Shown here: piece by piece, positions 2,840-59,102 of the stretch | Layout: every line of letters starts with the position of its first letter | How positions within the stretch are numbered: the stretch's first letter is position 1 | Assembly: GCA_023133595.1 (NCBI GenBank) | Contig: JAGLWF010000001.1 | Span: 33,693-97,692 of the forward strand | DNA length: 64,000 bases | Source: Nanobdellota archaeon | Lineage (GTDB): Archaea > Nanobdellota > Nanobdellia > Woesearchaeales > WJKV01 | Direction of reading: 5' to 3' | The notes under the pieces: model-generated | Seen by the model: only the letters and a program-made list of their open reading frames with translations | What the model was told of the DNA's origin: nothing | The model's database searches: none | Program-made: the position numbers and the translations under genes

Positions 2840-5800
2840 TTATTTTTTAACTGATTCTTTCTTGACTTCTTTTTTCAGCCAGCGTTCCCATTCATTGTAG
2901 ATCATCTTACTGTCAAGATCACCGACTTCCTCCAATACATTTTCTGAGATAATGTGAAACATATCATTGCATTTTATGACAAATGGAGCTTCTAGTAATT
3001 CGGGATTTCCTGCTTTCAGGGAATAATCCAAGTTAGCCTTCCGGATCTTTGCTCTTAGCATGATATTATCCCAGACAGCATCCCATTTTCCTGCCCACTG
3101 CTTGACATTTGCTGCAATGCTCTTCAAGACATCACTGTCTCCATTCATCAGATCTGGACTTGGTTCTAATTCATCTGTTATTGGATTATAACGAAGAAGA
3201 TCAACAAAACCCTGCTCTCTGTGCGGATCCTCGACCCAATCCTTTCTTACTTCTGTGATGCCTGTCATACGACGCCACCAATGCAGACCGTCAGGACTTC
3301 TGACAGGAGTATTCATAAGTATGATATCAGTTGCTTTGAATGATGTGCGCGGAACTCCGATATCATTGACAACACGATCAAACACACCGTAGGGACTGTC
3401 AGCGTGTATTGTGCCTGCAACAACATTTGCAGCTGCACCGACACGCATTGCTTCGTATAATGCCAGCGCTTCTGTATTGTGGAGTAAAATTCCTCCAAAA
3501 CCACCAATAAACCTCTGAGTGGACTTTACACTTAAATCATAAACATATTCTGGTTTTTTAAGATTAATAACCTCAATAGATTTTACTTTATCAACAAAAA
3601 ACTCACCATGAGCAAAATTATAAATCTCATCACTACATTTAACTTCTTCTGTAATTTTTTTAAGATAATCTTTTGAACAGCATTTTGTTCTTCTTAAATG
3701 CCTATACTTCCTTGGCAATTTTAAATGTTTTTCTAACTCTTTCGGATTAAATGATACTGAATCATCTTTACTATGTGAAAAAGATTTTGTAAATATAGAA
3801 GGCCTCTTATGTGTAAATCCAATATTTTTTAAGAAGAATTCAACATATTTTCTTTGCTTTATTTCAGCAATATATATTTTCTTATGACTTTTATTTATTT
3901 TGTTTCTGCTATGGATTCTACATACAATTCCTACTGATAAAAGTGCATAAGCGACATCTTCAATTAACTTTTTTGATGTTGAGAAATATTGGATCATGGT
4001 TCCAGCGCTTTTCGTTATACTAATAGAGCCATCACCGCTATACATTCCCCTTAATAGAGCACAGATCTTCTTTTCATTTAGGCCATACACAAATTCGGGG
4101 ATTCTTTTATGAAAAGATGTTTTCCCGCAATCTAACTTAAGTAATAAATCAGCAAGAGGTTTACATGTGACAAACATTTGTATTGAAGTCCCATAACCCT
4201 TTATTTTTCTCTTCGAAACAGATAATCCTAATTCTTTTTCACAAATTTGAGTTATATCTTTAATTATTTCTGGTTTTGAATTTGTAATCTGAATTTTGCT
4301 GTTAGTGATGTTACCTTCAGCGAGATAATATCCAATAAATCTTAAAACACTTTCATTTATTGGGAACTTCGTGGGAATACTATTTGAGGTTCCTCTTTTA
4401 ATTCTTAGATTCTCCAGATTAAACTTTATCTTTGCTTTAATCATTAATTTGAGAAAAGCTTTAATAGGAATCCTCGTTTTTTGAGTAGATAACAGATATC
4501 TGTAGATATCAGAAATCCCACAGATCTCGCTACATTTTTTCCAATTAAGTTTTTTGACTGCCTTACGAATATATGGTTCTGCATTTTCCAAACGATAGTC
4601 TTCTTTGAATACTCTTAACAAATCGATAGAACCAATATCATTAAAACCATTTGGCAATTTAGAAGGAATTATTATTGGATCTCCTACTTTTAATTGATTG
4701 GTGTTTATAGCAGCAATTTTAAAATCAACATGAGTAAATACACTATGGTCAGGAGTAACAGTAACTTCTCTTCCTGTTTTAGTAGTAAGTTTGATTAATT
4801 GTTTACGTTTAGGATGCTTTACAAAAGCAGTTAGTTTTTTTAATTTCATTTTTTGTTCCTCACCAAATGTAGGGACAAAAAATGATTTTAAATTCTTATT
4901 TTCTAAGTCTTTTATAGGCATCCGTTTAGTCAATCCATTTTCAACAATTACAACTTCCTCACTACCCTTAAGAGAACTTCTGACCTCACCTATAATCAAT
5001 GAAGAATCTCCCATCCGCAGTGTCGCACGGATTCCATCAGTTGCACTGACTCCTGATTCTTTTGTTGCTGCGAGTGCAGAAGAAACTTTCATAGATTGTA
5101 AATTGAATCCCAATTCACGCAGTGCCTGCGTCGGAAGTTCCAGTGTATCTTCAATCGTGATAATACGATAACGCCGCATGATGTCAACCATTACTGACGC
5201 AAGTACACTTGACTTTCCACTGCTCCTTGTACCTGCGACAAGCATTGTCTTTGTGCCGTCGATAAGAAAACTGATTATTCCTGCTGCAATAGGATTGAAC
5301 ATCTTGTATTTCATGAATAATGGGAGTGTCCACGGTTTATTTCTGTGCCTTCTGAATGCAAACGCAAGACCTGTTGGATTAAGTGGAGGCGAGATCGCAG
5401 AAACTCTTGTACGCGCAGCTGGCAGTGTAAGTTCTGTATCAAGGATAGGGTTTGCTTCATCCAATGGCCTGCCGCTTATCAGACGAAGTTTTGTTGCCCA
5501 ACTTTCTGACTCTGTCGGTGTCGGATAAATGTTTGAGAAACAATTTCCAAAGTCCTGGTGCACTATAAACATCGGAATCCTTCCAAGTGGAGAATTTAAT
5601 GTTACGTCCTGTATCTTTTCATCCTCCATCAGGACCTCGATCAGGCCGAATCCGATTGTGTAACGCATCAATATCTTTGCCAGCAACAAGATATCCTTAT
5701 TCTTCATCTTAATATCTTTTGTTTCTGCCAGTTCTGCCAACAAATCAACGCCAATGTTCATGAAAACTTCGCGCATCCGTTCTGGATCAATGAATTCAGA

Positions 5801-6628
5801 TTTTGTCGGCTTATGCTCTGCCATGATGTTTCTTGCAGTGTCGAGCAATTCGTACTGTTCTTCTGTGAGCCTGAACTCAGGCGGCATGAGATGATAAAGA
5901 TATTGAACATCCTCGGGAAGTTTGAAAACATTCACTTCTGTATCGCCGATAGAATAAGTGTCAAGGATCTCTCCACCGTCTGGATATTGTGCCCGCAGTT
6001 TTGTATACATGAAATCCGGTTTGATCACTGGTCTGAAGATCAGACGATATAGATCACGGGAATCAACAGAATATCCAGGGATTTGCGGAAGTACTGCTTT
6101 GATCATCCGCGTGCGTTCCAATAATTCTTTTACATAACTTAGGATCGCAATATATTTCTCTTCATTCATCAATCTTTTTGTGTCTGTGATTGTTTCTTTT
6201 GCTATCCTCGCCTCCCGTACCAATCGCTTTAGCATCACATAAGCTCCGATCGGATCCTGTTTTAGCCTGACAAATACCAAGTTATTGATCAGATCCTGTT
6301 TCTGCGCATACCATGTGCGGTATTCAGGAATCTTTCCTATCTCGAACAAAGATAGCTGATGCTTGTTCTGCGTGAGATGCGCATAGAGATTAGCAATCTC
6401 CATCAGGATGAGAACCTGGTTCATCTCATATTCAAAATCACGTTTTTGATAGTACACAATCTTTGTTACTTCTTTTACCTGCAATAGAATATCAATTGTC
6501 CTGCTCATCAGGAATGGATCATCTTCTAGGATTGGGATTCGTGAATAGGTCTCGCAATATATACGTAGAATGCGCTCTTCTCCTTCTCTTATTAGCTCAA
6601 ACTCCCAGTCCTTCTTCTGTGGCATCAT
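2840..6628 (-). CDS. FlaI/VirB11/GspE-family secretion or type IV pilus ATPase with a long N-terminal extension and an inserted ~501-aa intein (LAGLIDADG homing endonuclease type)
   Basis: Walker A GTRSSGKSS; PilT/GspE Asp box RIITIEDTLEL; Walker-B-proximal LIIGEVR; His box GTIHADS. Between GEVR and TEALALYEAMRVG lies a segment with intein block B (TPDH), two LAGLIDADG-like motifs (GYYLAEGNIT and LLRGMYSGDGSI), and a terminal ILLHN followed by Thr. Start moved to the MMPQKK ATG at 6628, which has AAAAAGGGGTGG upstream; the ORF-track N-terminus reads through the promoter. Confidence 0.8.
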   Translation of the reverse strand: MMPQKKDWEFELIREGEERILRIYCETYSRIPILEDDPFLMSRTIDILLQVKEVTKIVYYQKRDFEYEMNQVLILMEIANLYAHLTQNKHQLSLFEIGKIPEYRTWYAQKQDLINNLVFVRLKQDPIGAYVMLKRLVREARIAKETITDTKRLMNEEKYIAILSYVKELLERTRMIKAVLPQIPGYSVDSRDLYRLIFRPVIKPDFMYTKLRAQYPDGGEILDTYSIGDTEVNVFKLPEDVQYLYHLMPPEFRLTEEQYELLDTARNIMAEHKPTKSEFIDPERMREVFMNIGVDLLAELAETKDIKMKNKDILLLAKILMRYTIGFGLIEVLMEDEKIQDVTLNSPLGRIPMFIVHQDFGNCFSNIYPTPTESESWATKLRLISGRPLDEANPILDTELTLPAARTRVSAISPPLNPTGLAFAFRRHRNKPWTLPLFMKYKMFNPIAAGIISFLIDGTKTMLVAGTRSSGKSSVLASVMVDIMRRYRIITIEDTLELPTQALRELGFNLQSMKVSSALAATKESGVSATDGIRATLRMGDSSLIIGEVRSSLKGSEEVVIVENGLTKRMPIKDLENKNLKSFFVPTFGEEQKMKLKKLTAFVKHPKRKQLIKLTTKTGREVTVTPDHSVFTHVDFKIAAINTNQLKVGDPIIIPSKLPNGFNDIGSIDLLRVFKEDYRLENAEPYIRKAVKKLNWKKCSEICGISDIYRYLLSTQKTRIPIKAFLKLMIKAKIKFNLENLRIKRGTSNSIPTKFPINESVLRFIGYYLAEGNITNSKIQITNSKPEIIKDITQICEKELGLSVSKRKIKGYGTSIQMFVTCKPLADLLLKLDCGKTSFHKRIPEFVYGLNEKKICALLRGMYSGDGSISITKSAGTMIQYFSTSKKLIEDVAYALLSVGIVCRIHSRNKINKSHKKIYIAEIKQRKYVEFFLKNIGFTHKRPSIFTKSFSHSKDDSVSFNPKELEKHLKLPRKYRHLRRTKCCSKDYLKKITEEVKCSDEIYNFAHGEFFVDKVKSIEVINLKKPEYVYDLSVKSTQRFIGGFGGILLHNTEALALYEAMRVGAAANVVAGTIHADSPYGVFDRVVNDIGVPRTSFKATDIILMNTPVRSPDGLHWWRRMTGITEVRKDWVEDPHREQGFVDLLRYNPITDELEPSPDLMNGDSDVLKSIAANVKQWAGKWDAVWDNIMLRAKIRKANLDYSLKAGNPELLEAPFVIKCNDMFHIISENVLEEVGDLDSKMIYNEWERWLKKEVKKESVKK
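3476..4978 (-). other. Intein (Ser1 ... HN, with Thr at +1) inside the secretion ATPase; contains a LAGLIDADG homing endonuclease domain
   Basis: Boundaries found by residue counting. The extein junction is GEVR|S...ILLHN|TEALALYEAM, which leaves a contiguous GEVRTEALALYEAM. This resembles the FlaI GEIRGEEAYVLFQAM region. Confidence 0.65.
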
Positions 6629-6706
6629 CCACCCCTTTTTATATACTGAAATGAAGCATATATTTAAATATTTCCGACATTTCAGTTTCATAAAAGAGGG
6701 AAGATT
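6629..6706. promoter_or_regulatory. Divergent promoter region with palindromic TATA-like boxes (atatttaaatattt / tatatac)
   Basis: AT-rich intergenic region between the minus-strand ATPase start (6628) and the plus-strand ORF start (6707). TATA-like elements sit about 25-30 nt from both ATGs. Confidence 0.4.
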
Positions 6707-7174
6707 ATGTCTCCATTGTTCAAAAAAACACCAAAAACCGCAGATACTGCAAGAGGTCCTGAAAAGGCAGAATCCAGGTTCAAAAACATATTTGCTGGAA
6801 AAGAAAAAATGCCTGCAATAGGTCATGGTACAGAAACTCTCTTAGGTGACATAGGCAGGCGGTTGCGTGTTCTTGAAGATCGATACAACAGTTTGAGAAA
6901 ACAATTCCAGTTCACAGACCAGATCATGCTGAAAAATAAAAAAGAAATCAATACTGAGATAAAAGCAATGGACCTCACACTGTCCGAGATAAACAAAGAG
7001 ATTATCGAGCTAAAGGATAAAGCTGCAAGAATGTCCTCTGAACTGAAAGGCTGTGCAAGATTATCAGAACTCAAGATTATTGAAAAATACATTGATCTAT
7101 GGAAACCTGTGAATTTCCTTACGAGAGATCAGGCTATCAAGATGATCAAGGAATACGCAAAAAAGAATAAGTAA
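6707..7174 (+). CDS. Hypothetical coiled-coil protein
   Basis: 155-aa ORF with AGAGGGAAG ahead of the ATG. Heptad-like, K/E-rich sequence. Confidence 0.5.
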   Translation: MSPLFKKTPKTADTARGPEKAESRFKNIFAGKEKMPAIGHGTETLLGDIGRRLRVLEDRYNSLRKQFQFTDQIMLKNKKEINTEIKAMDLTLSEINKEIIELKDKAARMSSELKGCARLSELKIIEKYIDLWKPVNFLTRDQAIKMIKEYAKKNK

Positions 7175-8560: not shown

Positions 8561-9187
8561 TCAGCTAGGTGGTTCCCAGAATTTTGCCCAATCTTTCTTC
8601 CGTTGCTCTTTACGGTCCTTTGAGGTTCCTTCTGGTTCATGTATTATGAAATATATTATGATTCCAAATATCAATATGATCAGCAGCGCGGCCTGATTCT
8701 GCGGTGTGTTGATAAATCTTAATGGTCCAGGCAGATCCTTGAAAAGGCCGGCTGAATTACCAAAGATATAACCTACAACTATGATCGAGCCCCACAAGAT
8801 CCATGATTTGAATGGAAATTCTGTCCATGTTGGTGGTGCGAATATTCCAATCATCAGCATTACCATCAGGATTCCGACAATCCATAGAGAAATTGATGGC
8901 AGTGAATTATTGATTATTTCAACAACATCTGGATAGCCTGTCAATGCTCCGCCTAATCTGCCATCTGTAAAATCAGCAGTTCCATATACAACATGCGGGA
9001 TTATGATCAATAAAGCAATGACCAGAGAAATCACAACATTATACTTTTTGCCTTCCTTGCCCTTGCCAAGAATCTCAGTCTTTTGCAGTGCTGCAAAGAA
9101 TATTACGAATATCAAAAGAAATGGTAAGATAACATCTAAAGCACCTAAGCTTTCAAAGCTTCTTATTGCATCTTCAAAAACAGCCAT
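8561..9187 (-). CDS. Integral membrane protein, paralogous family member 2
   Basis: 208 aa. AGGTGAT RBS. Conserved blocks LDVILPFLLIF, DGRLGGA and NNSLPSIS(L/V)W shared with the 9270-9890 copy. Confidence 0.65.
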   Translation of the reverse strand: MAVFEDAIRSFESLGALDVILPFLLIFVIFFAALQKTEILGKGKEGKKYNVVISLVIALLIIIPHVVYGTADFTDGRLGGALTGYPDVVEIINNSLPSISLWIVGILMVMLMIGIFAPPTWTEFPFKSWILWGSIIVVGYIFGNSAGLFKDLPGPLRFINTPQNQAALLIILIFGIIIYFIIHEPEGTSKDRKEQRKKDWAKFWEPPS

Positions 9188-9269
9188 ATTATCACCTACT
9201 TAAATATATAGGATAGAAGATTCATATATAAAGGTTTCTAAAGGGATTTGTATAGAAAATAAAGAAAAA

Positions 9270-9890
9270 TTAACCTTCGCCTTCAGCTTTGGCTTTGGGT
9301 TTACCGTCGCCTTCTCCACCGCGTATGATAAAGAATATCACAATACCAAACACTAGTATTATCAGCAGCGCAGCCTGGTTGGCAGGTGTCTGCAGGAATC
9401 TTAATGCAGGTGGCAATTGCCTGAACAAGCCAGCTGAACTTCCAAAGATGTAGCCAACAACCACAACTGATACAAGCACTATGAGCCAGCTCCAACTTCC
9501 TAATTGATCTTTTATCGCATCTGGCATGAACAATCCTGTCAGAAGCATCAGCATAAGTATTGCAACAACCCATACAGAGATTGATGGCAATGAATTATTG
9601 AAGATCTCAACAACATCTGGCAGTCCCATGAATGCTCCGCCCAATCTTCCATCTGTCGGGTCAACTGTGCCAAATGCAACGTGCGGAATCACAATAAGCA
9701 ATCCAATAACCAAAGCAACTGTTACATCAAATCCTTTGTTTGGATTGGTATCAGCTTGTTTATGCAATATATTTGTCTTTCTCAATGCTGCATATATAAT
9801 CACAAAAACAAGCAGGAACGGAAGAACAACATCTGTAATACCCATCTGGTCCAGATTTCTTATAGCGTCAGCAAATACTCCTTGTGCCAT
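9270..9890 (-). CDS. Integral membrane protein, paralogous family member 3
   Basis: Start set at the ATG (MAQGV...) with AAGGAG 9 nt upstream. The ORF-track start is a TTG. About 55-60% identity by eye to the 8561-9187 copy. Confidence 0.65.
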   Translation of the reverse strand: MAQGVFADAIRNLDQMGITDVVLPFLLVFVIIYAALRKTNILHKQADTNPNKGFDVTVALVIGLLIVIPHVAFGTVDPTDGRLGGAFMGLPDVVEIFNNSLPSISVWVVAILMLMLLTGLFMPDAIKDQLGSWSWLIVLVSVVVVGYIFGSSAGLFRQLPPALRFLQTPANQAALLIILVFGIVIFFIIRGGEGDGKPKAKAEGEG

Positions 9891-24250: not shown

Positions 24251-24346
24251 CTATCAGAAGACCGATAATGGGTATATAAATATTGCTAATACCATTTATA
24301 AAAAAAGGATTTGTGGATATATAAAAATCCACAAGAACTAAAAAAT

Positions 24347-24619
24347 TTATCTCCTTTTTCTCCTTCGAGTTGTTCTTCTCTTTGTAGTTTTTCTTTTGGT
24401 TGTTTTTCGCTTAGTTGTTCTTCTCTTTGCTGTTTTTCGCTTAGTTGTTTTTCGTTTAGTTACTTTTCTTTTGGTTTTTCTCTTTGTAGTTTTTCTTTTG
24501 GTTGTTTTTCGCTTAGTTGTTTTTCTCTTTACTGTTTTTCTTTTGGTTGTTTTTCTTTTCTTAGTTCTTCGCTTAGTTGTCTTTTTCTTTGCTGTTTTTC
24601 TTTTTCTTCGTGCTGCCAT
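24347..24619 (-). CDS. Small Lys/Arg/Thr-rich basic protein (KRKTTKRKT repeats); putative nucleic-acid/chromatin-binding protein
   Basis: Start at the ATG (MAARRKRK) with AAGGAGGTG 7 nt upstream. About 60% K+R. Built from imperfect tandem DNA repeats. A consensus BRE/TATA promoter lies upstream. Confidence 0.6.
   Translation of the reverse strand: MAARRKRKTAKKKTTKRRTKKRKTTKRKTVKRKTTKRKTTKRKTTKRKTKRKVTKRKTTKRKTAKRRTTKRKTTKRKTTKRRTTRRRKRR
24380..24600. repeat. Imperfect tandem repeats (~27-30 nt units) encoding TTKRKT-type repeats
   Basis: Units such as cgcttagttgtttttc and ctttggttgtttttc recur throughout the gene. Confidence 0.6.
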
Positions 24620-24715
24620 CGTAATAAGCACCTCCTTTTTTTAAAATTGAACCGGTATAAACATAATAGAACTCACTATTTTTAGTCCTCACCTCTGTTT
24701 TTAATCACCAGTTCT

Positions 24716-32963: not shown

Positions 32964-35273
32964 ATGGCAGACGAGAAGCAAAAAAAAGAGATAAAGCTGA
33001 AAGTTACTGAAGCTGTACAGGATGATGTAAATAAAGGTATAGTCAGAATTGATTCTAATTTTATGCAGCAGATTGATGTCAAGCCAGGGGATATTGTAGA
33101 GATAGAAGGCGGAAGAAAGGCTGCAGGCATTGTTGGAAGGGCATATCCAGGGGACATTGGCTTCAATATTATCAGGACAGATTCTCTTATCAGGAGAAAT
33201 GCAAAGACTGGTATTGGCGAGATGGTCACTATCAGAAAAGCAGATGTTCTGGAAGCACAGAAGATTACAATCGCACCTGCGCGAAAAGATGTACGGATAA
33301 GTGCTTCGCCTGTTGTTTTCAAGCGCGGACTTTTAGGTCGTGTTGTTCGAAGAGGAGATCTTGTATCATTAGGCGGTGCAATCAACAGAAAGACAACAAT
33401 GGCTGATAATCCTTATTTTGATGATATATTTTCAAGCATGTTTGATGATAACTTTGGATTCGGAGGGTTTGCTCTGGGAAGTATCAAGTTCATGGTCACA
33501 GATGTAAAACCATCAAAAGCTTTTCTGATTGTCACTGAGAATACAGAGATCGATTTCAGACCAGAAGCAGTTGAGATCGGAGATGATGATGAAGAAAAGA
33601 CAATCGAGATTGCATACGAAGACATTGGCGGACTTGATGAAGAAATCAAAAAGATACGAGAGATGGTAGAACTGCCATTAAAACATCCAGAAATTTTCCA
33701 GAGATTAGGAATCGAACCGCCGAAAGGAGTCTTGCTCCATGGTCCTCCTGGAACTGGAAAGACTTTGCTGGCTAAAGCTGTTGCGAACGAGACAAACAGC
33801 AACTTCATATTGATCAATGGTCCAGAGATCATGGGAAAATTCTACGGACAAAGTGAAGAAAACCTAAGAAAGAAGTTTGCAGACGCAGACAAGCATGCAC
33901 CTTCGATCATATTCATTGACGAGATTGATGCGATCGCGCCAAAAAGAGAGGAAGTGCACGGAGAAGTGGAGAGAAGAGTTGTTGCTCAACTGCTCGCGTC
34001 TATGGACGGTCTGAAGAGCAGAGGCAAAGTTGTTGTCATTGCTGCAAGCAATATGCCAAATTCACTTGATCCTGCTTTGAGAAGGCCAGGAAGATTTGAT
34101 CGTGAGATCGAGATAGGTGTTCCAAAGGCAAGTGGAAGATTGAAGATTCTTAAGATTCATACACGAAACATGCCGCTCGATAAAAAAGTTGATCTTAAAA
34201 AGATAGCAGATATAACACACGGTTTTGTCGGAGCAGATCTGGCTGCGCTAGCTAAAGAAGCTGCAATGATTGTTCTTAGAGAAATATTGCCAGATCTAAA
34301 ATTAGATGAGGAAGAACCGATCCCAAGAGAAATTCTGGAAAAGATGACGATAAAACAAAGTGATTTCATTGACGCGCTTAAAGTTGTGCGTCCATCTGCA
34401 CTGAGAGAAGTACTGATCGAGATTCCAGATGTTTCATGGGATGATATTGGTGGACTGGATCATGTGAAGCAGGAACTGAAAGAAGCTGTTGAATGGCCTT
34501 TGAAATTTTCAGAATCATTCAGACGTCTCGGAATAAAACCGCCAAAAGGTGTTCTGATCTACGGTGCGCCTGGAACTGGAAAGACTTTGCTTGCAAAAGC
34601 AGTAGCTCACGAATCAGAAGCTAATTTCATACTAGTCAAAGGGCCTTCAATGTTATCCAAGTGGGTTGGAGAATCTGAAAAGGGTGTACGAAAAATATTC
34701 GACAAAGCCAGACAGTCAGCACCATGCATCATATTCTTTGACGAGATTGACAGTATTGCCCCAAAACGCGGTCAGAGCAGTGATAGCCAAGTAACTGAAA
34801 GAGTTGTCAACACATTGTTGACAGAGATGGATGGACTAGAAGAATTACATGATATTGTTATCATAGCAGCGACAAACAGACCAGACATCCTAGATACTGC
34901 ACTATTACGGCCTGGAAGATTCGACAGGATCATAATGGCAGATGTCCCAGATCTTGAGACACGAGAAAATATCTTTGCAGTGCATACAAAAAGTATGCCT
35001 CTAAAGGTTGTGGATATTAAGGAATTGGCAAAAAATACAGAAGGCTATGTTGGAGCTGATATTGAAGCAGTCTGCAGAGAAGCTGCAATGCTTGCTTTGC
35101 GTGAGGATATAAAAGCAACAAAAGTCACAAAGAAACATTTTGAAGAAGCCATTCAAAAAGTCAATCCAAGTGCAACAAAAGATATCCAAGCAGCGTATTC
35201 CAAGATGATGAATAAGTTTAAGCAAGCTACTGCAAAAGAAATGCAGGAAGAAAAACCTAGTTATTTAGGATAA
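32964..35273 (+). CDS. cdc48: Cdc48/VCP/p97-like AAA+ ATPase with two AAA domains
   Basis: N-domain followed by two Walker A sites ([13 protein letters not shown] and [13 protein letters not shown]), Walker B DEID, and SRH regions. Confidence 0.9.
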
Positions 35274-35283
35274 ATCCTTATCG

Positions 35284-35388
35284 TACATGCATAGCACGCT
35301 CCACTAGATCAATAATATGAGTTAGAAGACGAGTCTAGGGAACTAGCCTGTTTGATCTGAAAGCTACGCTTGGTGCTATGCACATACT
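35284..35388 (+). repeat. ~105-nt element with 15-nt imperfect terminal inverted repeats (GTACATGCATAGCAC ... GTGCTATGCACATAC) and a central agaagacgagtcta motif; copy A
   Basis: A second, inverted copy lies at 42267-42368 with conserved ends and a similar length. Both copies end 43-44 nt upstream of an ATG, with a TATA box in between. Confidence 0.6.
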
Positions 35389-35431
35389 TCCTATCAAAAG
35401 GTTTATATATCGATTTGCTCTTTTTCTTTTC

Positions 35432-38567: not shown

Positions 38568-39692
38568 ATGCATGTGCTATATCTGAAATGTTTTGAATGC
38601 GGAAAGACTTATCTTGATACAAGACCAAGATACAGATGCGATTGTGGAGATCCTCTTGATATTGTTTATAATTATAATGAAATAAAAAGAAAAATCAGCT
38701 GGACTAAATTAAGAAAAAGGAAATTTGGCCACTGGCGTTATATAGAATTTTATCCAATAATCAAGAACAAAAACATCATTTCTCTTGGTGAGGGTGCAAC
38801 GCCACTTGTGAAAGCTAGAAGATTGTGCAAAAAGAAACCAACATTGAACAACCTATACTTTAAATGTGAAGGTGAGAATCAAACTGGTTCATTCAAAGAT
38901 AGAGGGACTACAGTAGAATTATCAAAAGCATTGGAATTCGGTGCAAAAAAGATTGTTGTTGCCTCGACAGGAAATATGGGCGCATCAATTTCAGCATATT
39001 CTGCAGCAGCTGGAATCAAAGCAAAAATCTATGTGCCAAAAGGCGCTCCAAAAGAGAAACTGCAACAAATCAAGAATTATGGTGCCAAAGTCGTTAATGT
39101 GGATGGCACATATAAGAAAGCAGCAGAACTGGCCTACAGAGATTTTAAGTCTGGCAAAGCATACCTCATGGGAGATTATGCTTATCGTGGAGAAGGAGAA
39201 AAATCTATTGCTTATGAAATAATGGACAAGATCAATGCCAAGTATATCATCTGTCCAATCGGCAACGGAACTTTGATAAGTGGTGTATGGAAAGGTCTAA
39301 AGGAGTTGAAAGCTGTTGGTCTTATCAAGAAACTGCCCATACTTATTGGTGTCCAGGCTACTGGTTGTTCTCCTGTTGTCACAGCATATCAAAAATATAA
39401 AGAAATCGTTCCTGTCAAGCCAAGGACAATAGCTTCTGCAATTGCATGCGGAGATCCGTCTGACGGAGATAAAGCACTTGTTGCATTATTCGAGAGCAAA
39501 GGTCATGGTGTGACTGTGGATGATAAAGATATATTAGCTGCTCGAAGAGAAATGGCAAAGAACGAAGGATTGGATTGTGAACCTAGTGGTGCTGTTGCAT
39601 ATGCTGGATTGAAGAAATTGAAATTGCCAAAGAATGCAATAAAAGTAGCTGTTGTGACTGGGCATGGCCTTAAAGATTTGAAGAATGTCTGA
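38568..39692 (+). CDS. thrC: Threonine synthase with an N-terminal zinc ribbon
   Basis: PLP-lysine motif GSFKDRG. N-terminal CFECG...CDCG. Fold-type II PLP enzyme layout. Confidence 0.8.
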   Translation: MHVLYLKCFECGKTYLDTRPRYRCDCGDPLDIVYNYNEIKRKISWTKLRKRKFGHWRYIEFYPIIKNKNIISLGEGATPLVKARRLCKKKPTLNNLYFKCEGENQTGSFKDRGTTVELSKALEFGAKKIVVASTGNMGASISAYSAAAGIKAKIYVPKGAPKEKLQQIKNYGAKVVNVDGTYKKAAELAYRDFKSGKAYLMGDYAYRGEGEKSIAYEIMDKINAKYIICPIGNGTLISGVWKGLKELKAVGLIKKLPILIGVQATGCSPVVTAYQKYKEIVPVKPRTIASAIACGDPSDGDKALVALFESKGHGVTVDDKDILAARREMAKNEGLDCEPSGAVAYAGLKKLKLPKNAIKVAVVTGHGLKDLKNV

Positions 39693-39700
39693 TTTTACTA

Positions 39701-40762
39701 TTATTTCTTTATCACTTTCAGGAATCGTTTCACACTTTCTCTTGAATCCTGCTGTTTGAATCCAGGATATTTCCTTGCGATTTGAACATCACGCTTCAGC
39801 TTCAGCTTCTTTTGAGGTACTGAATAATACGTTCCCATGCGCTGATGATAATCACTCAAGTAGATTTGTTCAGTCTGCCCAAGTGTAGGAATGTATAAAG
39901 CTTTTTTACCTAAATGCGCTAGATCCATCATTGTTGTATATCCTGAGCGGGAAATTACTAATTTTGCACGATTCATCATCTCCTGCTGTTGCTTTACACT
40001 CAAACACGAGTGAATAAGAACATTATCTTTTCTTTTTGTAAATTCCAGTTCTGGCTTTCCCAGTGTTATAACCACATCTCCATCAAGATCTTTTGCTTGC
40101 TTGAGAACTTTCTCCTGAAAGATTGTTCGCTGCGGTTCTGGACCAGAGATAGAGATGAAATAATCAATATCTTGCTTTACCTTCATCCTTTCCATTGAAG
40201 ATAAGATCCCTAGATATTCAACGTCGTATTCGTCAAAGAATTTGAGATTATGTGATAAGTCCCCAGTCATATTAAATCCCTTATTATCTGGAACAAGAAC
40301 TTTTTTAAATTCACGAGAAAGTGCATAATTCATCACTTCCATTGTATTTTCAGCAAACTTGATCCGTTTTGGCACAATAAACCTTAGTTGATGTGACATA
40401 AAATAGCATGGAACCCGTTTGCTTGAAAAACCATATCTACAATCAGCAACAACAAGATCGTATCTATTTTTATGGAGCAATTGTCTGAACCGGCGTCTTT
40501 CCTGCTTCACAGCTTTAAACATCCTAGGAAGATAACTTGTGAATTTAATCGGAAAAAGCATTGCTTTCTTAGTATATGGCAAAGGATAGTCTGGGAAATC
40601 TATGAAATGGCATTCTGGAACTTCTTTTTTTAAGAATTCGAGCGAGCGTCCGCTTGTCGCAATAGTCACACTATGCTTTTTACGCAACAATGCCTTGATC
40701 AAAGGCAAATCTCGAGTTGCGTGACCTAACCCCCAGGTACATGTTCCAAAAAGTACATTCAT
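39701..40762 (-). CDS. GT-B-fold glycosyltransferase (MurG/UGT-like, family 1/28)
   Basis: N-terminal TWGLGHATR (a G-x-G-H loop). C-terminal SRSGYTTMMDLAHLGKKALYIPT resembles the MurG/UGT donor-binding region. Confidence 0.5.
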   Translation of the reverse strand: MNVLFGTCTWGLGHATRDLPLIKALLRKKHSVTIATSGRSLEFLKKEVPECHFIDFPDYPLPYTKKAMLFPIKFTSYLPRMFKAVKQERRRFRQLLHKNRYDLVVADCRYGFSSKRVPCYFMSHQLRFIVPKRIKFAENTMEVMNYALSREFKKVLVPDNKGFNMTGDLSHNLKFFDEYDVEYLGILSSMERMKVKQDIDYFISISGPEPQRTIFQEKVLKQAKDLDGDVVITLGKPELEFTKRKDNVLIHSCLSVKQQQEMMNRAKLVISRSGYTTMMDLAHLGKKALYIPTLGQTEQIYLSDYHQRMGTYYSVPQKKLKLKRDVQIARKYPGFKQQDSRESVKRFLKVIKK

Positions 40763-42222
40763 TTGCTAACTCCCAATACAACACAGTATCTATCTTCAAA
40801 GACTGGTGCTATTCCCTCCGAAGACAACAAATATTTAAGCATGTCGGGCAGTGTCTTTTTCATTATTACAAAGCGGGAATCAAAGTCTTGGCTGATGGTT
40901 TTTGCTGGATTCGGGTCCTTCATTGTAGTCAAATCATTGTATTTTTCGTACAGGACAGGATCATATTCCCAAAGATATAATGGATCAAGACCATAGACGT
41001 AAGTATTCTTATCATTGAAAAAGAAGATCGGAGGAAAATCTGAATACAGTGTAAAAATTGTCTCACCTCTTTTAGTCTGGCCTGCTGTCCATAACGCACA
41101 GGGCTCAAACAGATATGATGGATAGCTTTCAGCATCCTTTTTTATTATCTTCACTGTCTTATCCAGATTCAGGTAAATGAACGGAGCTGAAATAAGTATT
41201 AGGATTATTAATAATATGGGCATCGAGAGTTTTATCTTCTCCTTGTTTTTTTCAATAAAATTCTTAATGTCCATACTAGATATCAAGCCCAAACCAATCA
41301 GTGTGAATGGAACCCAGTATTCAAAGAACCTTTTTGCCTTAAATGTCATGATCAAAAATACCAAGGCAAGAAGAAACAAAGAAGCATATTCCTTGAACCT
41401 TCTTCTTCGGATAAACACTAGAAAACTTATCAGGAAACAGATGGCTGTGAACCAAAATATTGTTATTGCCAGCCACCAGGGATCAAAAGGTATTGAATCC
41501 AGAGAACGGAATAACAGCTGGACCGGCCATAATAATACTTTGATCTGTATCCATAAAAGAGAGAGATTATGCGGAAAATATGGATGAATACTGCTTCCTG
41601 TTGCAAGCCCCAGAAAGCAGTATAATGGTAGCTTATAGTTTAATTTCTTTTTATATAAAAGGTTCACAAGAACAACCAGAACGCATGCTCCAAACAGCAG
41701 GGGAAAAGAGGAATATGCCCATGCAAATAGAATTGAGAGTACGAACAAATGCTTATATCTCTTCTCAAGAATAAAATCCAAGCCTAATATCAGGAATATC
41801 ACGCCGACCTGGAATCCGCGCGAAAAGCTTGCTCTTGCAAGGTATAATGGAGAAGATGCAAAAAATAGGAGCGACCAGAAGAATGCCAGATCAACCTTTC
41901 TTTTCCGCAAGAACCAATATATCAATGTTGGGACTAAAGCTGAGAGAACAACAGCTGCCAGTTTTGCACCATAATTAAGATTAAAGTAGGTAAACGGAAT
42001 AAGGAAGAAATGGTACAAAACATTAGTATCTGCTTCTGAAAAAACAGAGAACTTCCAGAACGGCTGGCCAGAGAAAAGGCCGTTATCTTTCAGATATTCT
42101 GCATATTTGATATGAAAATAACTGTCATTGCCAATCACTGTTGGAACTGAAAATTGCACATAATAAAGCAGTGCAAAGAAAAGAATGAATGCCAATATTA
42201 TCTTGAGATCAGACTTATTCAT
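40759..42222 (-). CDS. Polytopic membrane protein, possibly a GT-C-fold glycosyltransferase (ArnT/PMT-like)
   Basis: 487 aa with about 11 TM helices. Overlaps the downstream GT-B gene by 4 nt. No OST WWDYG motif. Confidence 0.4.
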   Translation of the reverse strand: MNKSDLKIILAFILFFALLYYVQFSVPTVIGNDSYFHIKYAEYLKDNGLFSGQPFWKFSVFSEADTNVLYHFFLIPFTYFNLNYGAKLAAVVLSALVPTLIYWFLRKRKVDLAFFWSLLFFASSPLYLARASFSRGFQVGVIFLILGLDFILEKRYKHLFVLSILFAWAYSSFPLLFGACVLVVLVNLLYKKKLNYKLPLYCFLGLATGSSIHPYFPHNLSLLWIQIKVLLWPVQLLFRSLDSIPFDPWWLAITIFWFTAICFLISFLVFIRRRRFKEYASLFLLALVFLIMTFKAKRFFEYWVPFTLIGLGLISSMDIKNFIEKNKEKIKLSMPILLIILILISAPFIYLNLDKTVKIIKKDAESYPSYLFEPCALWTAGQTKRGETIFTLYSDFPPIFFFNDKNTYVYGLDPLYLWEYDPVLYEKYNDLTTMKDPNPAKTISQDFDSRFVIMKKTLPDMLKYLLSSEGIAPVFEDRYCVVLGVSK

Positions 42223-42261
42223 ACCCTAGAATTTGGTGTTTTTGTATATAAATTTATGTGT

Positions 42262-42480
42262 ATAATGTATGTGCATAGCACCTAGCGTAGTCTTAGAAGG
42301 ATACACTTTAGTAACATAGACTCGGCTTAATGATATATTTCTGATGCGAACGAAGCGTGCTATGCATAAAAGCAATTGCTGCGTCCTGCTCGACGTTGCT
42401 CTTAGCTTTGGAAGACGAGTCTATATATCTCGCACAAAAAGTCAGAAGGCGACACTGGGCAGCAATTGCTATGCACATAC
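42262..42480. repeat. Composite copy B of the palindromic-ended element: an inverted full copy (42267-42368) plus a 5'-truncated direct copy (42365-42480) sharing a central arm
   Basis: gtatgtgcatagcac at 42267-42281 is the exact reverse complement of ttgctatgcacatac (42466-42480), apart from 1 nt. The internal arm is gtgctatgcat at 42355-42365. The ggaagacgagtcta motif is present. Confidence 0.55.
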
Positions 42481-42510
42481 CGTATAATAAAAAGAAAAAA
42501 GAAAAAGAAT

Positions 42511-43050
42511 CTATTTTATCAGAACCAAATTTGTTGCTACCATCTGATTTTTTCCTGCTTTTTTTAGGTCAAACTTGACATGGTCGTATCTGTTGAAATC
42601 CTCATGGGTTGCCACAAATCCAAATTTGAAAGCACTGTTATCTTTTTTGATAAAACCATAGTCATATCTGCCATTATAACTTAATCGTACGATTCTACCA
42701 GTTCTTTTGCCAGTAAAGGTTTTTGCTTGCGGTTTTTCTGTCTGTGCTATCAATCTTGCAGGAATCTTCTTTATCCTGACTGGTATTGGTTGCTTCAAGA
42801 CCGGTTCTATCTGATCTTTTTCTGGCCCGTAAGTTCCAAACCGCGATGTTGATGTCGGGGTCCATTTTTTGGACCGGATTGCCTTAAAGACTTTCTTTCC
42901 AGAATAACTTGGAACTTCAATATACCTTTCTTCGTATTGCTCTTTTTCTGCAGGCACATTATATTTATGATAGTCTGTTATTGCTAAAGCGCCTGTTGAA
43001 AGAACTAATAAGAAAACCAGTAATACTCCTGCAATCAAATGTATTTTCAT
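42511..43050 (-). CDS. Secreted hypothetical protein with an N-terminal signal peptide
   Basis: MKIHLIAGVLLVFLLVLSTGALA followed by a hydrophilic Lys-rich domain. Confidence 0.5.
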   Translation of the reverse strand: MKIHLIAGVLLVFLLVLSTGALAITDYHKYNVPAEKEQYEERYIEVPSYSGKKVFKAIRSKKWTPTSTSRFGTYGPEKDQIEPVLKQPIPVRIKKIPARLIAQTEKPQAKTFTGKRTGRIVRLSYNGRYDYGFIKKDNSAFKFGFVATHEDFNRYDHVKFDLKKAGKNQMVATNLVLIK

Positions 43051-43149: not shown

Positions 43150-43635
43150 TTACCTTCTCCTCTTTTTTCTCTTGGTGGTTTTCTTTTTCTTCTTTACTTT
43201 CTTCTTTGTCTTTCGCTTTACTTTTCTCTTCTTCACTTTCTTCTTTGCTTTTCTCTTAGGTTTCTTCTTTGCCTTTCTCTTCTTCACTTTCTTCTTTGCT
43301 TTTCTCTTAGGTTTCTTTTTTGCTTTTCTCTTCTTCACTTTCTTCTTTGTCTTTCGCTTTACTTTTCTCTTCTTTGCCTTTTTCTTAGCTTTTTTCTTTC
43401 GTCGCTTTCCACCACGAGCCATCTTTACCATAGCTACATCTCCAGCTTTGTCGATGAAGTATAGATAGCCAGGTTTTCGCTTTACGCCAACTTTAGCAAC
43501 TATGGTTTGCCTCTGTTTGCCTTTTTTACCGCCACCTCTGGACATTTTAGCCATAGCTACATTTCCTCTCTTGTCCAAGAAGTAAAGGTATCCTTTTTTT
43601 CGTTTGACACCAACTTTTGCTACTTTTGTTGCCAT
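43150..43635 (-). CDS. Basic protein with a duplicated ~35-aa N-terminal motif (VAKVGVKRKxGYLYFxDKxGxVAMxKMxRGG) and a long Lys/Arg-rich tail; putative nucleoid/chromatin protein
   Basis: 161 aa. GAGGTGAT RBS. The tail contains the direct repeat KKKVKKRKAKKKPKRKAKKKVKKRK. A consensus promoter (aaacatttaaatatg) is at 43650-43690. Confidence 0.6.
   Translation of the reverse strand: MATKVAKVGVKRKKGYLYFLDKRGNVAMAKMSRGGGKKGKQRQTIVAKVGVKRKPGYLYFIDKAGDVAMVKMARGGKRRKKKAKKKAKKRKVKRKTKKKVKKRKAKKKPKRKAKKKVKKRKAKKKPKRKAKKKVKKRKVKRKTKKKVKKKKKTTKRKKRRR
43190..43400. repeat. Tandem DNA repeats encoding the KR-rich tail
   Basis: The ~54-nt unit tcttcactttcttctttgcttttctcttaggtttctt... occurs twice, with partial copies flanking. 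Confidence 0.6.
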
Positions 43636-46864: not shown

Positions 46865-46935
46865 ACAAATATATAAGCTTTTTGTTTTGATTCTAGCAAG
46901 ATTTATAAAAAGATAATTTTACTAAATCATATTAT

Positions 46936-47009
46936 GGGGACATAGTTTAACCTGGCTAGAGCGGCCGGCTCCAGACCGGCAAATCGGGGTTCAAATCCCC
47001 GTGTCCCCA
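46936..47009 (+). tRNA. tRNA-Trp (anticodon CCA), no intron, CCA not encoded
   Basis: Acceptor GGGGACA/UGUCCCC with discriminator A. Anticodon arm GCCGG-CUCCAGA-CCGGC. T-arm CGGGG-UUCAAAU-CCCCG. aaatatataagc TATA about 55 nt upstream. Confidence 0.8.
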
Positions 47010-47076
47010 TTTTATAGTCCCAGTAATTTTAAATAATGAAGATATTTCTCTCGAAAAGTGGAGCGGGGGTTTAAAA

Positions 47077-58175: not shown

Positions 58176-58931
58176 CTATTTTCTTAATACAAATATCATG
58201 TCACTTCCTATTTTTGGAAACCAGTCTCCCAAGCGAATCGCTATCTCTTTCAAAAATTTAGGAGCAAATCTTGATCTCATTGGAAAAGTGACATTGGAAG
58301 TTACAATCGAGATGATATTTAATTTATACTCCTTAAGCTGCTGTTTCAGTATCGGGACTGTATAAGCTCTGATGTGACCTGCTCCGCCAGGTATGCGATA
58401 TTCAGGGACAAAATTCGGATATTTTCCAAACAATATCCTAACACGGTTTGTCAGAGAAACCAGGTTTGGGGTTGTCAAGATTAAGATCCCTCCTTTTCTT
58501 AATACTCTTTTCAGTTCTGAAATGAAAAAGTCAGTGTCATACAGATGCTCGATTACTTCAGATGCCAGAACTAGATCAAAAGACCCGTCGGGATACGGTA
58601 TGGCTTTCTCAAGATTATGCACTTTAGCCTTGACACCCCTATTATTGGCTGATTTAACTGCATTTTTAGAGATATCAATACCATGCGTCTCAAATCCAAA
58701 GTCTTTTTTTAATTTTGCAGAAAAAGAACCATCAGCACATGCGACATCTAAGGTTTTTTGAAATCTATATTTTCTATTTAATCTTCTAATGATCCTATAG
58801 ATCTTAAAGATGTAGTATTTATGCTTGTCAAACGCACGATATTCTGAATATCTTTTATCCTGGTCAGTCTCAGCATTGATAGCTTTCTTCATATGTTCAG
58901 CAAAAAATATCCAATTAATAAATATATTCAT
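58176..58931 (-). CDS. Class I SAM-dependent methyltransferase (start uncertain: 58931 or 58892)
   Basis: LDVACADGSF (motif I), GIDIS, and LVLASEVIEHL (type-11 MTase-like). The ORF-track start (58970) would overlap the 5S rRNA. Confidence 0.6.
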   Translation of the reverse strand: MNIFINWIFFAEHMKKAINAETDQDKRYSEYRAFDKHKYYIFKIYRIIRRLNRKYRFQKTLDVACADGSFSAKLKKDFGFETHGIDISKNAVKSANNRGVKAKVHNLEKAIPYPDGSFDLVLASEVIEHLYDTDFFISELKRVLRKGGILILTTPNLVSLTNRVRILFGKYPNFVPEYRIPGGAGHIRAYTVPILKQQLKEYKLNIISIVTSNVTFPMRSRFAPKFLKEIAIRLGDWFPKIGSDMIFVLRK

Positions 58932-58944
58932 TAGAAAATAAAGG

Positions 58945-59057
58945 TGGACAGTTTTCCTAGTTTCCCGCATATAAATGCAGTACAGCTAAAAACGGTAACC
59001 TGCTTAACTTCCGAGTTCGAAATGGGATCGGGTGAACCAGGTCCCTATGACCGTCCA
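58945..59057 (-). rRNA. 5S ribosomal RNA (stand-alone, ~113 nt)
   Basis: The minus strand reads ...CCCGAUCCCAUUUCGAACUCGGAAGUUAAGC..., the universal 5S loop C/helix III core. Terminal helix I UGGACGGU/ACUGUCCA. Confidence 0.75.
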
Positions 59058-59102
59058 TATCGAGATATCTAAGAGGTATTTATAAAGGTTTTGGATATAA
59101 AC

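What the first reader, a model, noticed from the sequence alone, without database searches (positions are those of the whole stretch)
35284..35388. Palindromic-ended ~105-nt element sitting exactly 43-44 nt upstream of two unrelated start codons
Copy A (35284-35388) and the inverted copy in B (42267-42368) share 15-nt terminal inverted repeats (GTAC/TGTGCATAGCAC ... GTGCTATGCACATAC) and a central agaagacgagtcta-like motif, but diverge in between. In both cases the element ends 43-44 nt before an ATG (gatD at 35432; the GT-C membrane gene at 42222 on the other strand). A TATA box sits in the gap, which places the element just upstream of the core promoter. Copy B carries an extra 5'-truncated direct copy. 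Possible identities are a MITE that donates an upstream activating site, a structured sRNA with a 15-bp closing stem, or a transcription-factor operator pair. The ORF-track start for gatD lies inside the repeat (ATGCACATAC), a trap for automated annotation.
Basis: seen in the sequence. Interest (0 to 1): 0.6.

Follow-up and report, generated by a model that had tools for sequence, protein, structure and literature searches.

The report
Small transposon relic beside archaeal promoters
The repeat is most likely a miniature, non-coding transposable element (a MITE) that inserted just upstream of two promoters in a tiny DPANN archaeal genome; this is an ordinary kind of element, and its identical distance to both start codons largely follows from promoter geometry and the element's 8-bp target duplication.

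Summary
The window holds three related copies at two sites: A (35283-35387), and B1 (42267-42371, inverted) fused head-to-head with B2 (about 42362-42480). They share the 15-nt ends GTATGTGCATAGCAC, a GACGAGTCTA core and a 3' tail.

My best reading is a MITE-like non-autonomous transposon (confidence 0.72).
- Both units have 15-bp terminal inverted repeats: the 105-nt A and the 214-nt B1+B2 composite.
- Both units are flanked by an imperfect 8-bp direct repeat (6/8, p=0.007; 7/8, p=0.0015). Only k=8 gives a peak.
- The closest relative (GatD 86% identical) and two more distant ones keep the same CDC48-gatD junction and promoter in a 37-43 nt spacer, without the element. This is an empty site.

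The 44-nt distance to both ATGs breaks down as 8 (duplication) + 6 (BRE) + 30 (TATA to ATG). The 30-nt spacing is general among leaderless genes in this genome.

There is no Rfam match and no conserved internal RNA fold, and the gatD promoter exists without the element in the relative.

I found no further copies in about 83 kb of the genome or in public collections, and no partner transposase, so copy number and mobility remain untested. MITEs are already reported in DPANN archaea. Interest is low.

The parts
35283..35387 (+). Copy A, a 105-nt element. It lies between the CDC48 stop codon (35271-35273) and the gatD promoter.
   Evidence: It is absent from the orthologous spacer in L007, L008 and L010.
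35283..35297 (+). Left terminal inverted repeat of A (GTACATGCATAGCAC).
   Evidence: 2 mismatches to the arm consensus.
35373..35387 (+). Right terminal inverted repeat of A (GTGCTATGCACATAC). It contains the ATG at 35378 that starts the longest gatD ORF.
35324..35337 (+). Conserved core motif AGAAGACGAGTCTA in A.
35275..35282 (.). Left copy of the putative 8-bp target-site duplication of A (TCCTTATC).
   Evidence: 6/8 match with 35388-35395, empirical p=0.007. Other lengths from 4 to 10 give at most 4 matches.
35388..35395 (.). Right copy of the putative 8-bp target-site duplication of A (TTCCTATC).
35396..35409 (+). gatD core promoter: a purine-rich BRE-like AAAAGG (35396-35401) plus the TATA box TTTATATA (35402-35409), 30 nt before the ATG at 35432. 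It is ancestral, not part of the element.
   Evidence: The same sequence is present in L007, which lacks the element. The 30-32 nt spacing class is shown.
42267..42480 (.). B composite, 214 nt: B1 and B2 fused head-to-head. The outer ends are GTATGTGCATAGCAC and TTGCTATGCACATAC (14/15 as inverted repeats).
42267..42371 (-). Copy B1, 105 nt and A-like. Its inner end (TTTT instead of GTAC) is not a complete terminal repeat.
   Evidence: 71.6% to A.
42362..42480 (+). Copy B2, a diverged subfamily. It shares the palindrome TATGCATA (42361-42368) with B1 and has its own inner stem, AGCAATTGCTGC (42371-42382) paired with GCAGCAATTGCT (42459-42470).
42259..42266 (.). Left copy of the putative 8-bp target-site duplication of the B composite (TGTATAAT).
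   Evidence: 7/8 match with 42481-42488, empirical p=0.0015. B1 alone and B2 alone have no flanking repeat.
42481..42488 (.). Right copy of the putative 8-bp target-site duplication of the B composite (CGTATAAT).
42245..42252 (-). TATA box (TTTATATA on the minus strand) of the 487-aa membrane gene, 30 nt before its ATG at 42222 and 14 nt from the element end.

Best explanation
The repeats are copies of a miniature inverted-repeat transposable element (MITE-like, non-autonomous DNA transposon) in a Woesearchaeota/Nanoarchaeota (DPANN) MAG.

**Structure.** A unit is non-coding and bounded by 15-bp terminal inverted repeats (consensus end GTATGTGCATAGCAC).

**Mechanism (inferred).** A transposase encoded elsewhere binds the two ends, excises or copies the unit, and inserts it at a staggered 8-bp cut. 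This leaves an 8-bp target duplication.

**Events.** I see two insertion events. The first is a 105-nt unit (A) between the CDC48 stop codon and the gatD promoter. The second is a 214-nt head-to-head fusion of two diverged units (B1+B2) that appears to have moved as one piece, landing in front of the promoter of a 487-aa membrane-protein gene.

**Why both sit 44 nt from an ATG.** In this compact genome the spacers are about 40 nt and consist almost entirely of the promoter. The only tolerated insertion point is therefore just upstream of the BRE/TATA. Both copies end 8 (duplication) + 6 (BRE) + 30 (TATA to leaderless ATG) = 44 nt from the start codon.

**Consequences.** The elements are most likely neutral passengers. 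They are probably transcribed as hairpin-forming 3' tails of the upstream genes, which is inferred and not shown.

**What is shown and what is inferred.** Shown: inverted repeats, flanking 8-bp repeats, homology of the copies, the empty site in relatives, and the pre-existing promoter. Inferred: transposition by a trans-acting transposase, neutrality, and transcription.
For: 1. **Terminal inverted repeats.** They match 13/15 (A) and 14/15 (B composite). Such a pair at that spacing occurs only once in the 64-kb window.
2. **Flanking direct repeats.** They appear at exactly 8 bp in both units: 6/8 (empirical p 0.007) and 7/8 (p 0.0015). No other length from 4 to 10 gives a signal, and neither B1 nor B2 alone has one.
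3. **Empty site.**
   - In L007 (GatD 86% identical) the spacer from the CDC48 stop to the gatD ATG is 43 nt. In L008 and L010 (62% and 60%) it is 37-39 nt.
   - Removing the element and one duplication copy from the window gives a sequence that aligns colinearly with L007 through the stop codon, BRE, TATA and ATG.
4. **Homology of the copies.** The copies are homologous but diverged: A/B1 71.6%, E 5e-12; A/B2 64%, E 0.005. This is what an old repeat family looks like.
5. **No coding capacity.** Nearly every reading frame through each copy contains stop codons. The two frames that stay open, both through B2, are not shared between copies.
6. **Location.** The copies are intergenic, in AT-rich sequence.
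7. **Promoter geometry.** A TATA-to-ATG spacing of 30-32 nt recurs at 7 or more genes in this genome.
8. **Literature.** MITEs are defined by TIRs of at least 10-15 bp and TSDs of 2-10 bp, and they have been found at high density in DPANN genomes, including a Woesearchaeon (PMC11602168; PMC10969869).
Against: - **Copy number.** I found only three copies at two sites in about 83 kb of this genome (window plus about 19 kb of flanks).
- **External searches.** Exact-pattern scans of genome, metagenome and viral collections found only chance matches. Multi-copy status is therefore not established.
- **No partner.** I found no transposase or full-length element with the same ends.
- **Imperfect duplications.** The flanking repeats match 6/8 and 7/8, not perfectly.
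- **No empty site for B.** The closest relative lacks the whole 487-aa gene as well, so no empty site is available.
- **Assembly evidence.** An independent assembly reads through copy A without breaking. This argues against many near-identical copies.
- **Same offset from the TATA box.** The identical 14-nt offset in both insertions has roughly a 1/17 to 1/40 chance under pure selection, and neutral insertion does not fully explain it.
Confidence: 0.72

Rival explanations
1. The element is a small structured non-coding RNA gene, possibly itself mobile or duplicated. The 10-15 bp terminal stem would close a functional RNA and the GACGAGUCUA core would be a functional loop or binding site.
For: - Each copy folds with a long closing stem.
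- The strand of A opposite to gatD folds best (-36.4 kcal/mol, z -4.5), because the two arm mismatches become G-U pairs on that strand.
- B2 has a different closing stem that changed on both sides.
- A 10-nt core is conserved in all three copies while the flanking interior diverges.
Against: - There is no Rfam match, even at E<=10.
- The consensus folds of the three copies are weak on both strands (-4.4 and -5.9 kcal/mol), and no internal helix is kept beyond the terminal stem.
- B1 and B2 abut head-to-head, leaving no room for upstream promoters.
- A single transition in any stem gives G-U on one strand and C-A on the other, so the strand asymmetry in A carries almost no weight.
- Coordinated change of both arms is equally expected for transposase-recognised ends.
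- An RNA gene does not explain the 8-bp flanking duplications or the empty site.
Confidence: 0.1
2. The arms are operators for a transcription factor. Each arm contains the quasi-palindrome GTGC-N3-GCAC, with sites spaced 86 bp apart, and the element acts as an upstream regulatory module that co-regulates gatD and the membrane gene.
For: - Both copies end exactly 14 nt upstream of a TATA box.
- The arm contains GTGC..GCAC half-sites, visible directly in the sequence.
- The two arm sites are 86 bp apart in both A and B1.
Against: - The gatD promoter (BRE, TATA, spacing) is intact and nearly identical in the closest relative without the element.
- B2 faces the 3' end of a gene, not a promoter.
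- The 70% similarity across the whole interior shows common descent of the entire unit rather than convergent binding sites.
- gatD and an orphan membrane gene have no evident functional link.
Confidence: 0.04
3. The copies are not products of transposition. They would be remnants of some other process, such as ancestral spacer sequence independently deleted in the relatives, recombination scars, or DNA acquired together with the 487-aa gene and then copied once by gene conversion.
For: - Only two sites are known.
- The B region lies next to a gene that the closest relative lacks and that has no close homologues.
- The duplications are imperfect.
Against: - Three relatives at two phylogenetic depths all have the short spacer, so insertion is the parsimonious reading.
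- The same 8-bp flanking-repeat length at two unrelated sites, together with 15-bp inverted ends, is the specific signature of DDE-type transposition.
Confidence: 0.08

Closest known systems
Prokaryotic MITEs in general, including those reported in archaea (Sulfolobus, Halobacterium and Haloquadratum MITEs, and census MITEs in DPANN/Woesearchaea; PMC10969869, PMC11602168)
   Same: It is small (105-214 nt), non-coding and AT-rich, and it sits in intergenic DNA. It has 15-bp terminal inverted repeats and short flanking direct repeats (8 bp). Its presence varies between related genomes, and units can be fused or nested.
   Different: I have no sequence match to any described family, and I could not query ISfinder. 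Copy number in the genome and the partner transposase are unknown. Only two insertion sites have been seen.
Correia elements (CREE) of Neisseria and RUP/ERIC-type bacterial MITEs
   Same: They are about 100-150 nt units with terminal inverted repeats, typically lying just upstream or downstream of genes. They are transcribed into hairpins and sometimes affect neighbouring gene expression (PMC10969869).
   Different: From my own knowledge, Correia elements have 26-bp repeats and duplicate TA. They carry sigma-70 promoters and IHF sites and are restricted to Neisseria. Here the host is an archaeon with TATA/BRE promoters, the duplication is 8 bp, and no promoter function is shown.
IS66 family / ISBst12 group insertion sequences, as a possible parent of the ends
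   Same: IS66 members have terminal repeats starting GTAAGCG and make 8-bp direct repeats (PMC11946415). An ISBst12-group member has ends GTGACTACTCAGCA / GTAACTGCTCAGCA with an 8-bp repeat (PMC12898284). The element here begins GTATGTGC / GTACATGC and has an 8-bp duplication.
   Different: Only the first three bases and the duplication length agree. No IS66-type transposase was found in the 83 kb examined. Other families (IS256, ISL3, IS6, hAT) also make 8-bp duplications. This is a lead, not an assignment.

Membership tests
MITE (non-autonomous class II element) | Small size (about 50-800 bp) and no transposase or other coding capacity | tested here: met
   The units are 105 nt and 214 nt. 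Nearly every reading frame contains stop codons, and the two frames that stay open through B2 are not shared between copies.
MITE (non-autonomous class II element) | Terminal inverted repeats of at least 10-15 bp | tested here: met
   13/15 (A) and 14/15 (B composite). This is a unique occurrence in the window at that spacing.
MITE (non-autonomous class II element) | Target-site duplication of 2-10 bp flanking the element | tested here: met
   The repeats are 8 bp, matching 6/8 (p 0.007) and 7/8 (p 0.0015). The peak occurs only at k=8 in both units. The repeats are imperfect.
MITE (non-autonomous class II element) | Insertion polymorphism: an empty site in a related genome | tested here: met
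   Met for copy A. L007, L008 and L010 have 37-43 nt spacers with the same promoter and no element. It is not testable for B, because the relative lacks the neighbouring gene too.
MITE (non-autonomous class II element) | Multiple dispersed copies in the genome | tested here: inconclusive
   I found three copies at two sites in about 83 kb.
MITE (non-autonomous class II element) | A partner autonomous element with matching ends, encoding the transposase | not testable with these tools
   No arm-like sequence occurs outside the three copies in the window and its flanks. The whole genome could not be scanned.
IS66-derived element | Ends starting GTAAGCG-like, with an 8-bp direct repeat | tested here: inconclusive
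   The ends start GTATGTGC / GTACATGC, so only GTA is shared. The 8-bp repeat is present (family features from PMC11946415).
Any described RNA family (Rfam 15) | A covariance-model match at or near the gathering score | tested here: not met
   No match overlaps the element at the gathering threshold or at E<=10.
Archaeal C/D box or H/ACA guide RNA | C (RUGAUGA) and D (CUGA) boxes in the proper arrangement, or a pseudouridylation pocket plus an ACA box directly 3' of the lower stem | tested here: not met
   By inspection there is no C box on either strand. An ACA follows the stem in A and B1, but the spacing from the upper stem to ACA would be about 22 nt, and in B2 the ACA is displaced from the stem. 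No snoRNA-type Rfam hit overlaps the element.
IS200/IS605-type palindrome-associated elements (PATE/REP-like) | No target duplication, and insertion 3' of a fixed tetra- or pentanucleotide | tested here: not met
   8-bp flanking repeats are present. The left flanks differ (..TTATC versus ..ATAAT).

The most novel reading that the evidence does not exclude
The element family targets archaeal promoters. In both independent insertions the 8-bp staggered cut spans exactly positions -14 to -7 relative to the TATA box, directly abutting the BRE. This could mean that integration is steered by TBP/TFB-bent promoter DNA, analogous to Ty3 or Tf1 targeting in yeasts. Alternatively, the inserted hairpin element may be retained because it insulates or modulates the promoter, for example by terminating read-through from the upstream gene. 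Either would be a new behaviour for an archaeal mobile element.
Probability: 0.07. Interest if true: 0.6.

Novelty: new member of a known kind. Interest (0 to 1): 0.25.

Why it matters
If this reading is right, it adds one uncharacterised MITE family to a Woesearchaeota-type DPANN genome. It gives a clean filled-site versus empty-site pair, showing that even genomes with about 40-nt spacers tolerate insertions in the few bases between a stop codon and the next BRE.

In practice it matters for annotation. The right arm supplies an in-frame ATG that lengthens the gatD ORF by 18 codons. The hairpin-forming unit may also break assemblies.

It does not open a new biological question unless more copies show the same promoter-proximal offset.

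Tried and rejected
- **Rfam searches.** I searched the whole window at the gathering threshold and both loci at E<=10. Nothing overlapped the element.
- **Exact-pattern scans of public collections.**
  - I scanned the genome and metagenome collections for GAGTCTA-N30-50-GCTATGCACATAC, and the viral collection for the 15-mer arm.
  - All hits matched only the pattern itself when re-scored with a profile of the three copies, so they are chance matches.
- **BLASTN of the B composite.** Against phage and plasmid records I found one irrelevant 28-nt hit and otherwise nothing.
- **Profile (nhmmer) search of nearby and related sequence.** The window, about 19 kb of extra flank from the same contig, and the loci of four relatives gave no further copy at E<0.2.
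- **Consensus RNA folding.** Folding the three copies on both strands gave weak results. Because of that I did not build a covariance model.
- **Protein search with a translated element.** I considered this as a way to find miscalled ORFs over other copies. I rejected it because no open frame is shared between copies.
- **Walking along the contig through paralogous proteins.** I considered this and rejected it, because the paralogues in reach are all tandem.
- **Assembly break.** I asked whether the break of an independent assembly inside B1 (contig L003 ends at window 42351) indicates a repeat. This is inconclusive, because the same assembly reads through copy A.
- **MITE census supplements.** The supplementary tables of the MITE census paper are not held, so I could not look up the relatives' MITE content.
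- **Guide-RNA readings.** I checked C/D-box and H/ACA readings by eye and dropped them.

Full report
**What is there.**

The window is part of contig DAOVMF010000002.1 of MAG GCA_030630885.1, an AT-rich DPANN archaeon labelled Nanoarchaeota/Woesearchaeota. The reported repeat is real.
- **Copy A** spans 35283-35387 (105 nt). Its arms are GTACATGCATAGCAC and GTGCTATGCACATAC.
- **Copy B1** spans 42267-42371 on the other strand, with the same arms.
- **Copy B2** lies head-to-head against B1 and runs to 42480. It shares the core GGAAGACGAGTCTA and the 3' tail TTGCTATGCACATAC. It has a different inner stem, AGCAATTGCTGC / GCAGCAATTGCT.
- **The junction.** B1 and B2 overlap at the palindrome TATGCATA (42361-42368).
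- **Similarity.** A and B1 are 71.6% identical over 102 nt (E 5e-12). A and B2 are 64% identical over 73 nt (E 0.005).
- **Chance.** The arm 15-mer has 5 matches at up to 3 mismatches against 1.09 expected. An inverted 15-mer pair of this quality and spacing occurs only once in the 64 kb.
- **Other copies.** A profile of the three copies finds nothing else in the window.

**Context.**

Copy A begins 9 nt after the stop codon of a CDC48-type ATPase gene (32964-35273) and ends 44 nt before the gatD ATG (35432). B1 ends 44 nt before the ATG (42222, minus strand) of a 487-aa membrane protein. B2 points toward the stop codon of a 179-aa gene (42511-43050, minus strand). In both A and B1 a TTTATATA box starts 14 nt beyond the element and 30 nt before the ATG.

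**It is an insertion.**

I fetched the gatD loci of the closest available relatives.
- In L007 (GCA_019323305.1, GatD 86% identical) the CDC48 stop and the gatD ATG are 43 nt apart.
- In L008 and L010 (62% and 60%) they are 37-39 nt apart.
- The L007 spacer reads TAAAGTCATCAAAAAGTTTATATATCGAACTGCTCTTTTTCTTCTTATG. This is the same BRE-like purine run, TATA box and spacing as downstream of copy A, but without the element.
- Removing 35283-35395 (the element plus one flanking repeat) from the window gives a sequence that aligns colinearly with L007 across the stop codon, promoter and start codon.

Three relatives at two depths share the short spacer, so gain in the window's lineage is the parsimonious reading. 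For B no empty site is available. L007 lacks the 487-aa gene altogether, and that gene has no homologue above 31% identity.

**Signature of transposition.**

The 8 nt on either side of A are TCCTTATC and TTCCTATC (6/8). The 8 nt on either side of the whole B1+B2 composite are TGTATAAT and CGTATAAT (7/8).
- Against all positions of the window at the same spacing, these matches have empirical p values of 0.007 and 0.0015.
- For flank lengths 4 to 10, only 8 gives a peak, and this holds in both units.
- Neither B1 alone nor B2 alone has flanking repeats.

The outer ends of the composite are again the family's terminal repeat (14/15). So A and the 214-nt composite each look like one transposed unit with 15-bp inverted ends and an 8-bp target duplication. 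These are the defining features of MITEs as given in PMC11602168 and PMC10969869. The units carry no usable reading frame.

**Why 44 nt.**

I tabulated TATA-like motifs upstream of the called genes in about 57 kb of this contig. This showed two promoter classes.
- One class has the TATA box starting 30-32 nt before the ATG. It has 7 genes, including gatD and the 487-aa gene, and is presumably leaderless.
- The other class has the TATA box at 40-47 nt and a GGTGAT-type ribosome-binding site.

The 44 nt therefore break down as 8 (right copy of the duplication) + 6 (BRE-like hexamer) + 30 (a genome-wide constant). In the CDC48-gatD spacer only about 9 nt lie between the stop codon and the BRE, so a tolerated insertion could hardly fall elsewhere. 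For B the pre-insertion spacer was about 66 nt, so the same offset there is a mild coincidence. I estimate 1/17 to 1/40, which two sites cannot resolve.

**RNA and operator readings.**
- No Rfam family matches at the gathering score or at E<=10.
- Each copy folds with a long terminal stem. The consensus fold of the three copies is weak on both strands (-4.4 and -5.9 kcal/mol), and no internal helix is kept.
- The better fold of A on the strand opposite gatD comes from two adjacent transitions that read as G-U on that strand. This carries little weight.
- The coordinated change of both arms in B2 is expected equally for transposase-bound ends.
- B1 and B2 abut with no room for promoters.
- The gatD promoter exists unchanged without the element in L007, which argues against an upstream activating site or an ancestral operator.

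**What could not be shown.**
- I could not reach the rest of the MAG.
- Pattern scans of the genome, metagenome and viral collections returned only chance matches.
- Phage and plasmid BLAST found nothing relevant.
- The extra ~19 kb of flank from the same contig and the relatives' loci hold no further copy and no transposase with these ends.
- An independent assembly (Logan, SRR13892600) ends inside B1 at window 42351 but reads through A. This gives no clear verdict on copy number.

The parent family is unknown. IS66-type elements start GTAAGCG and make 8-bp repeats (PMC11946415; PMC12898284), which agrees with only the first three bases and the duplication length here. This is a lead only.

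**Verdict.**

This is a MITE-like element (confidence about 0.72). It belongs to a class already reported at high density in DPANN genomes, including a Woesearchaeon (PMC11602168). I rate it a new member of a known kind, with low interest.

The residual curiosity is the identical offset from the TATA box in two independent insertions. That would be worth a look once all copies in the genome can be listed.

Noticed in passing
window 35378-35431: The longest ORF for gatD starts at an ATG inside the element's right arm (35378), 18 codons upstream of the start used in the deposited annotation. The 86% homologue also supports the start at 35432. This mobile element creates a spurious N-terminal extension.
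   Followed up: yes
window 40759-42222 (- strand): This 487-aa membrane protein has no Pfam hit. Its best homologue anywhere is 31% identical. It is absent from the closest relative's otherwise syntenic locus. A distant homologue sits among several similar-sized membrane proteins and glycosyltransferases (L047).
   Followed up: partly
window 42351 / L003 position 1: The contig from an independent Logan assembly (SRR13892600_264528) ends 20 nt inside B1, while the same assembly reads through copy A. The cause could be a near-identical copy elsewhere, strain polymorphism at B, or a coverage drop at the inverted dimer.
   Followed up: partly
window 2840-6826 (- strand): A large (about 1260-1330 aa) T2SSE/VirB11-type ATPase gene carries an intein with a LAGLIDADG homing-endonuclease domain (Pfam list of L040 6198-9986).
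   Followed up: no
window 24327-24635 and 43150-43400: Long runs of degenerate 12-15-nt tandem repeats (TTTCTTCTTT-type) lie inside coding regions. They encode K/E-rich low-complexity stretches and dominate the repeat finder's output.
   Followed up: no
window 38568-39692: A PALP-domain (pyridoxal-phosphate enzyme) gene between gatE and the glycosyltransferase is present here and in the 60% relative L010, but missing from the 86% relative L007. This is local gene-content flux around the B site.
   Followed up: no
window 8561-9890 (- strand) and L040 1881-4898: There are four tandem paralogues of a 190-208-aa membrane protein with no Pfam family (26-59% identical to each other).
   Followed up: partly
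window 58943-59058 (-) and 46935-47010 (+): A 5S rRNA gene and a tRNA-Trp(CCA) gene are the only RNA genes detected in the window. The upstream sequence retrieved for the 264-aa methyltransferase gene (window 58176-58970) reads like the 5S gene, so that gene call may overlap the 5S rRNA.
   Followed up: no
window-wide (L040, L043, L001, L002 gene starts): Two promoter-to-start classes are visible. In one, the TATA box is 30-32 nt before the ATG (leaderless type). In the other, the TATA box is 40-47 nt before the ATG, with a GGTGAT/GGAGGT ribosome-binding site.
   Followed up: partly
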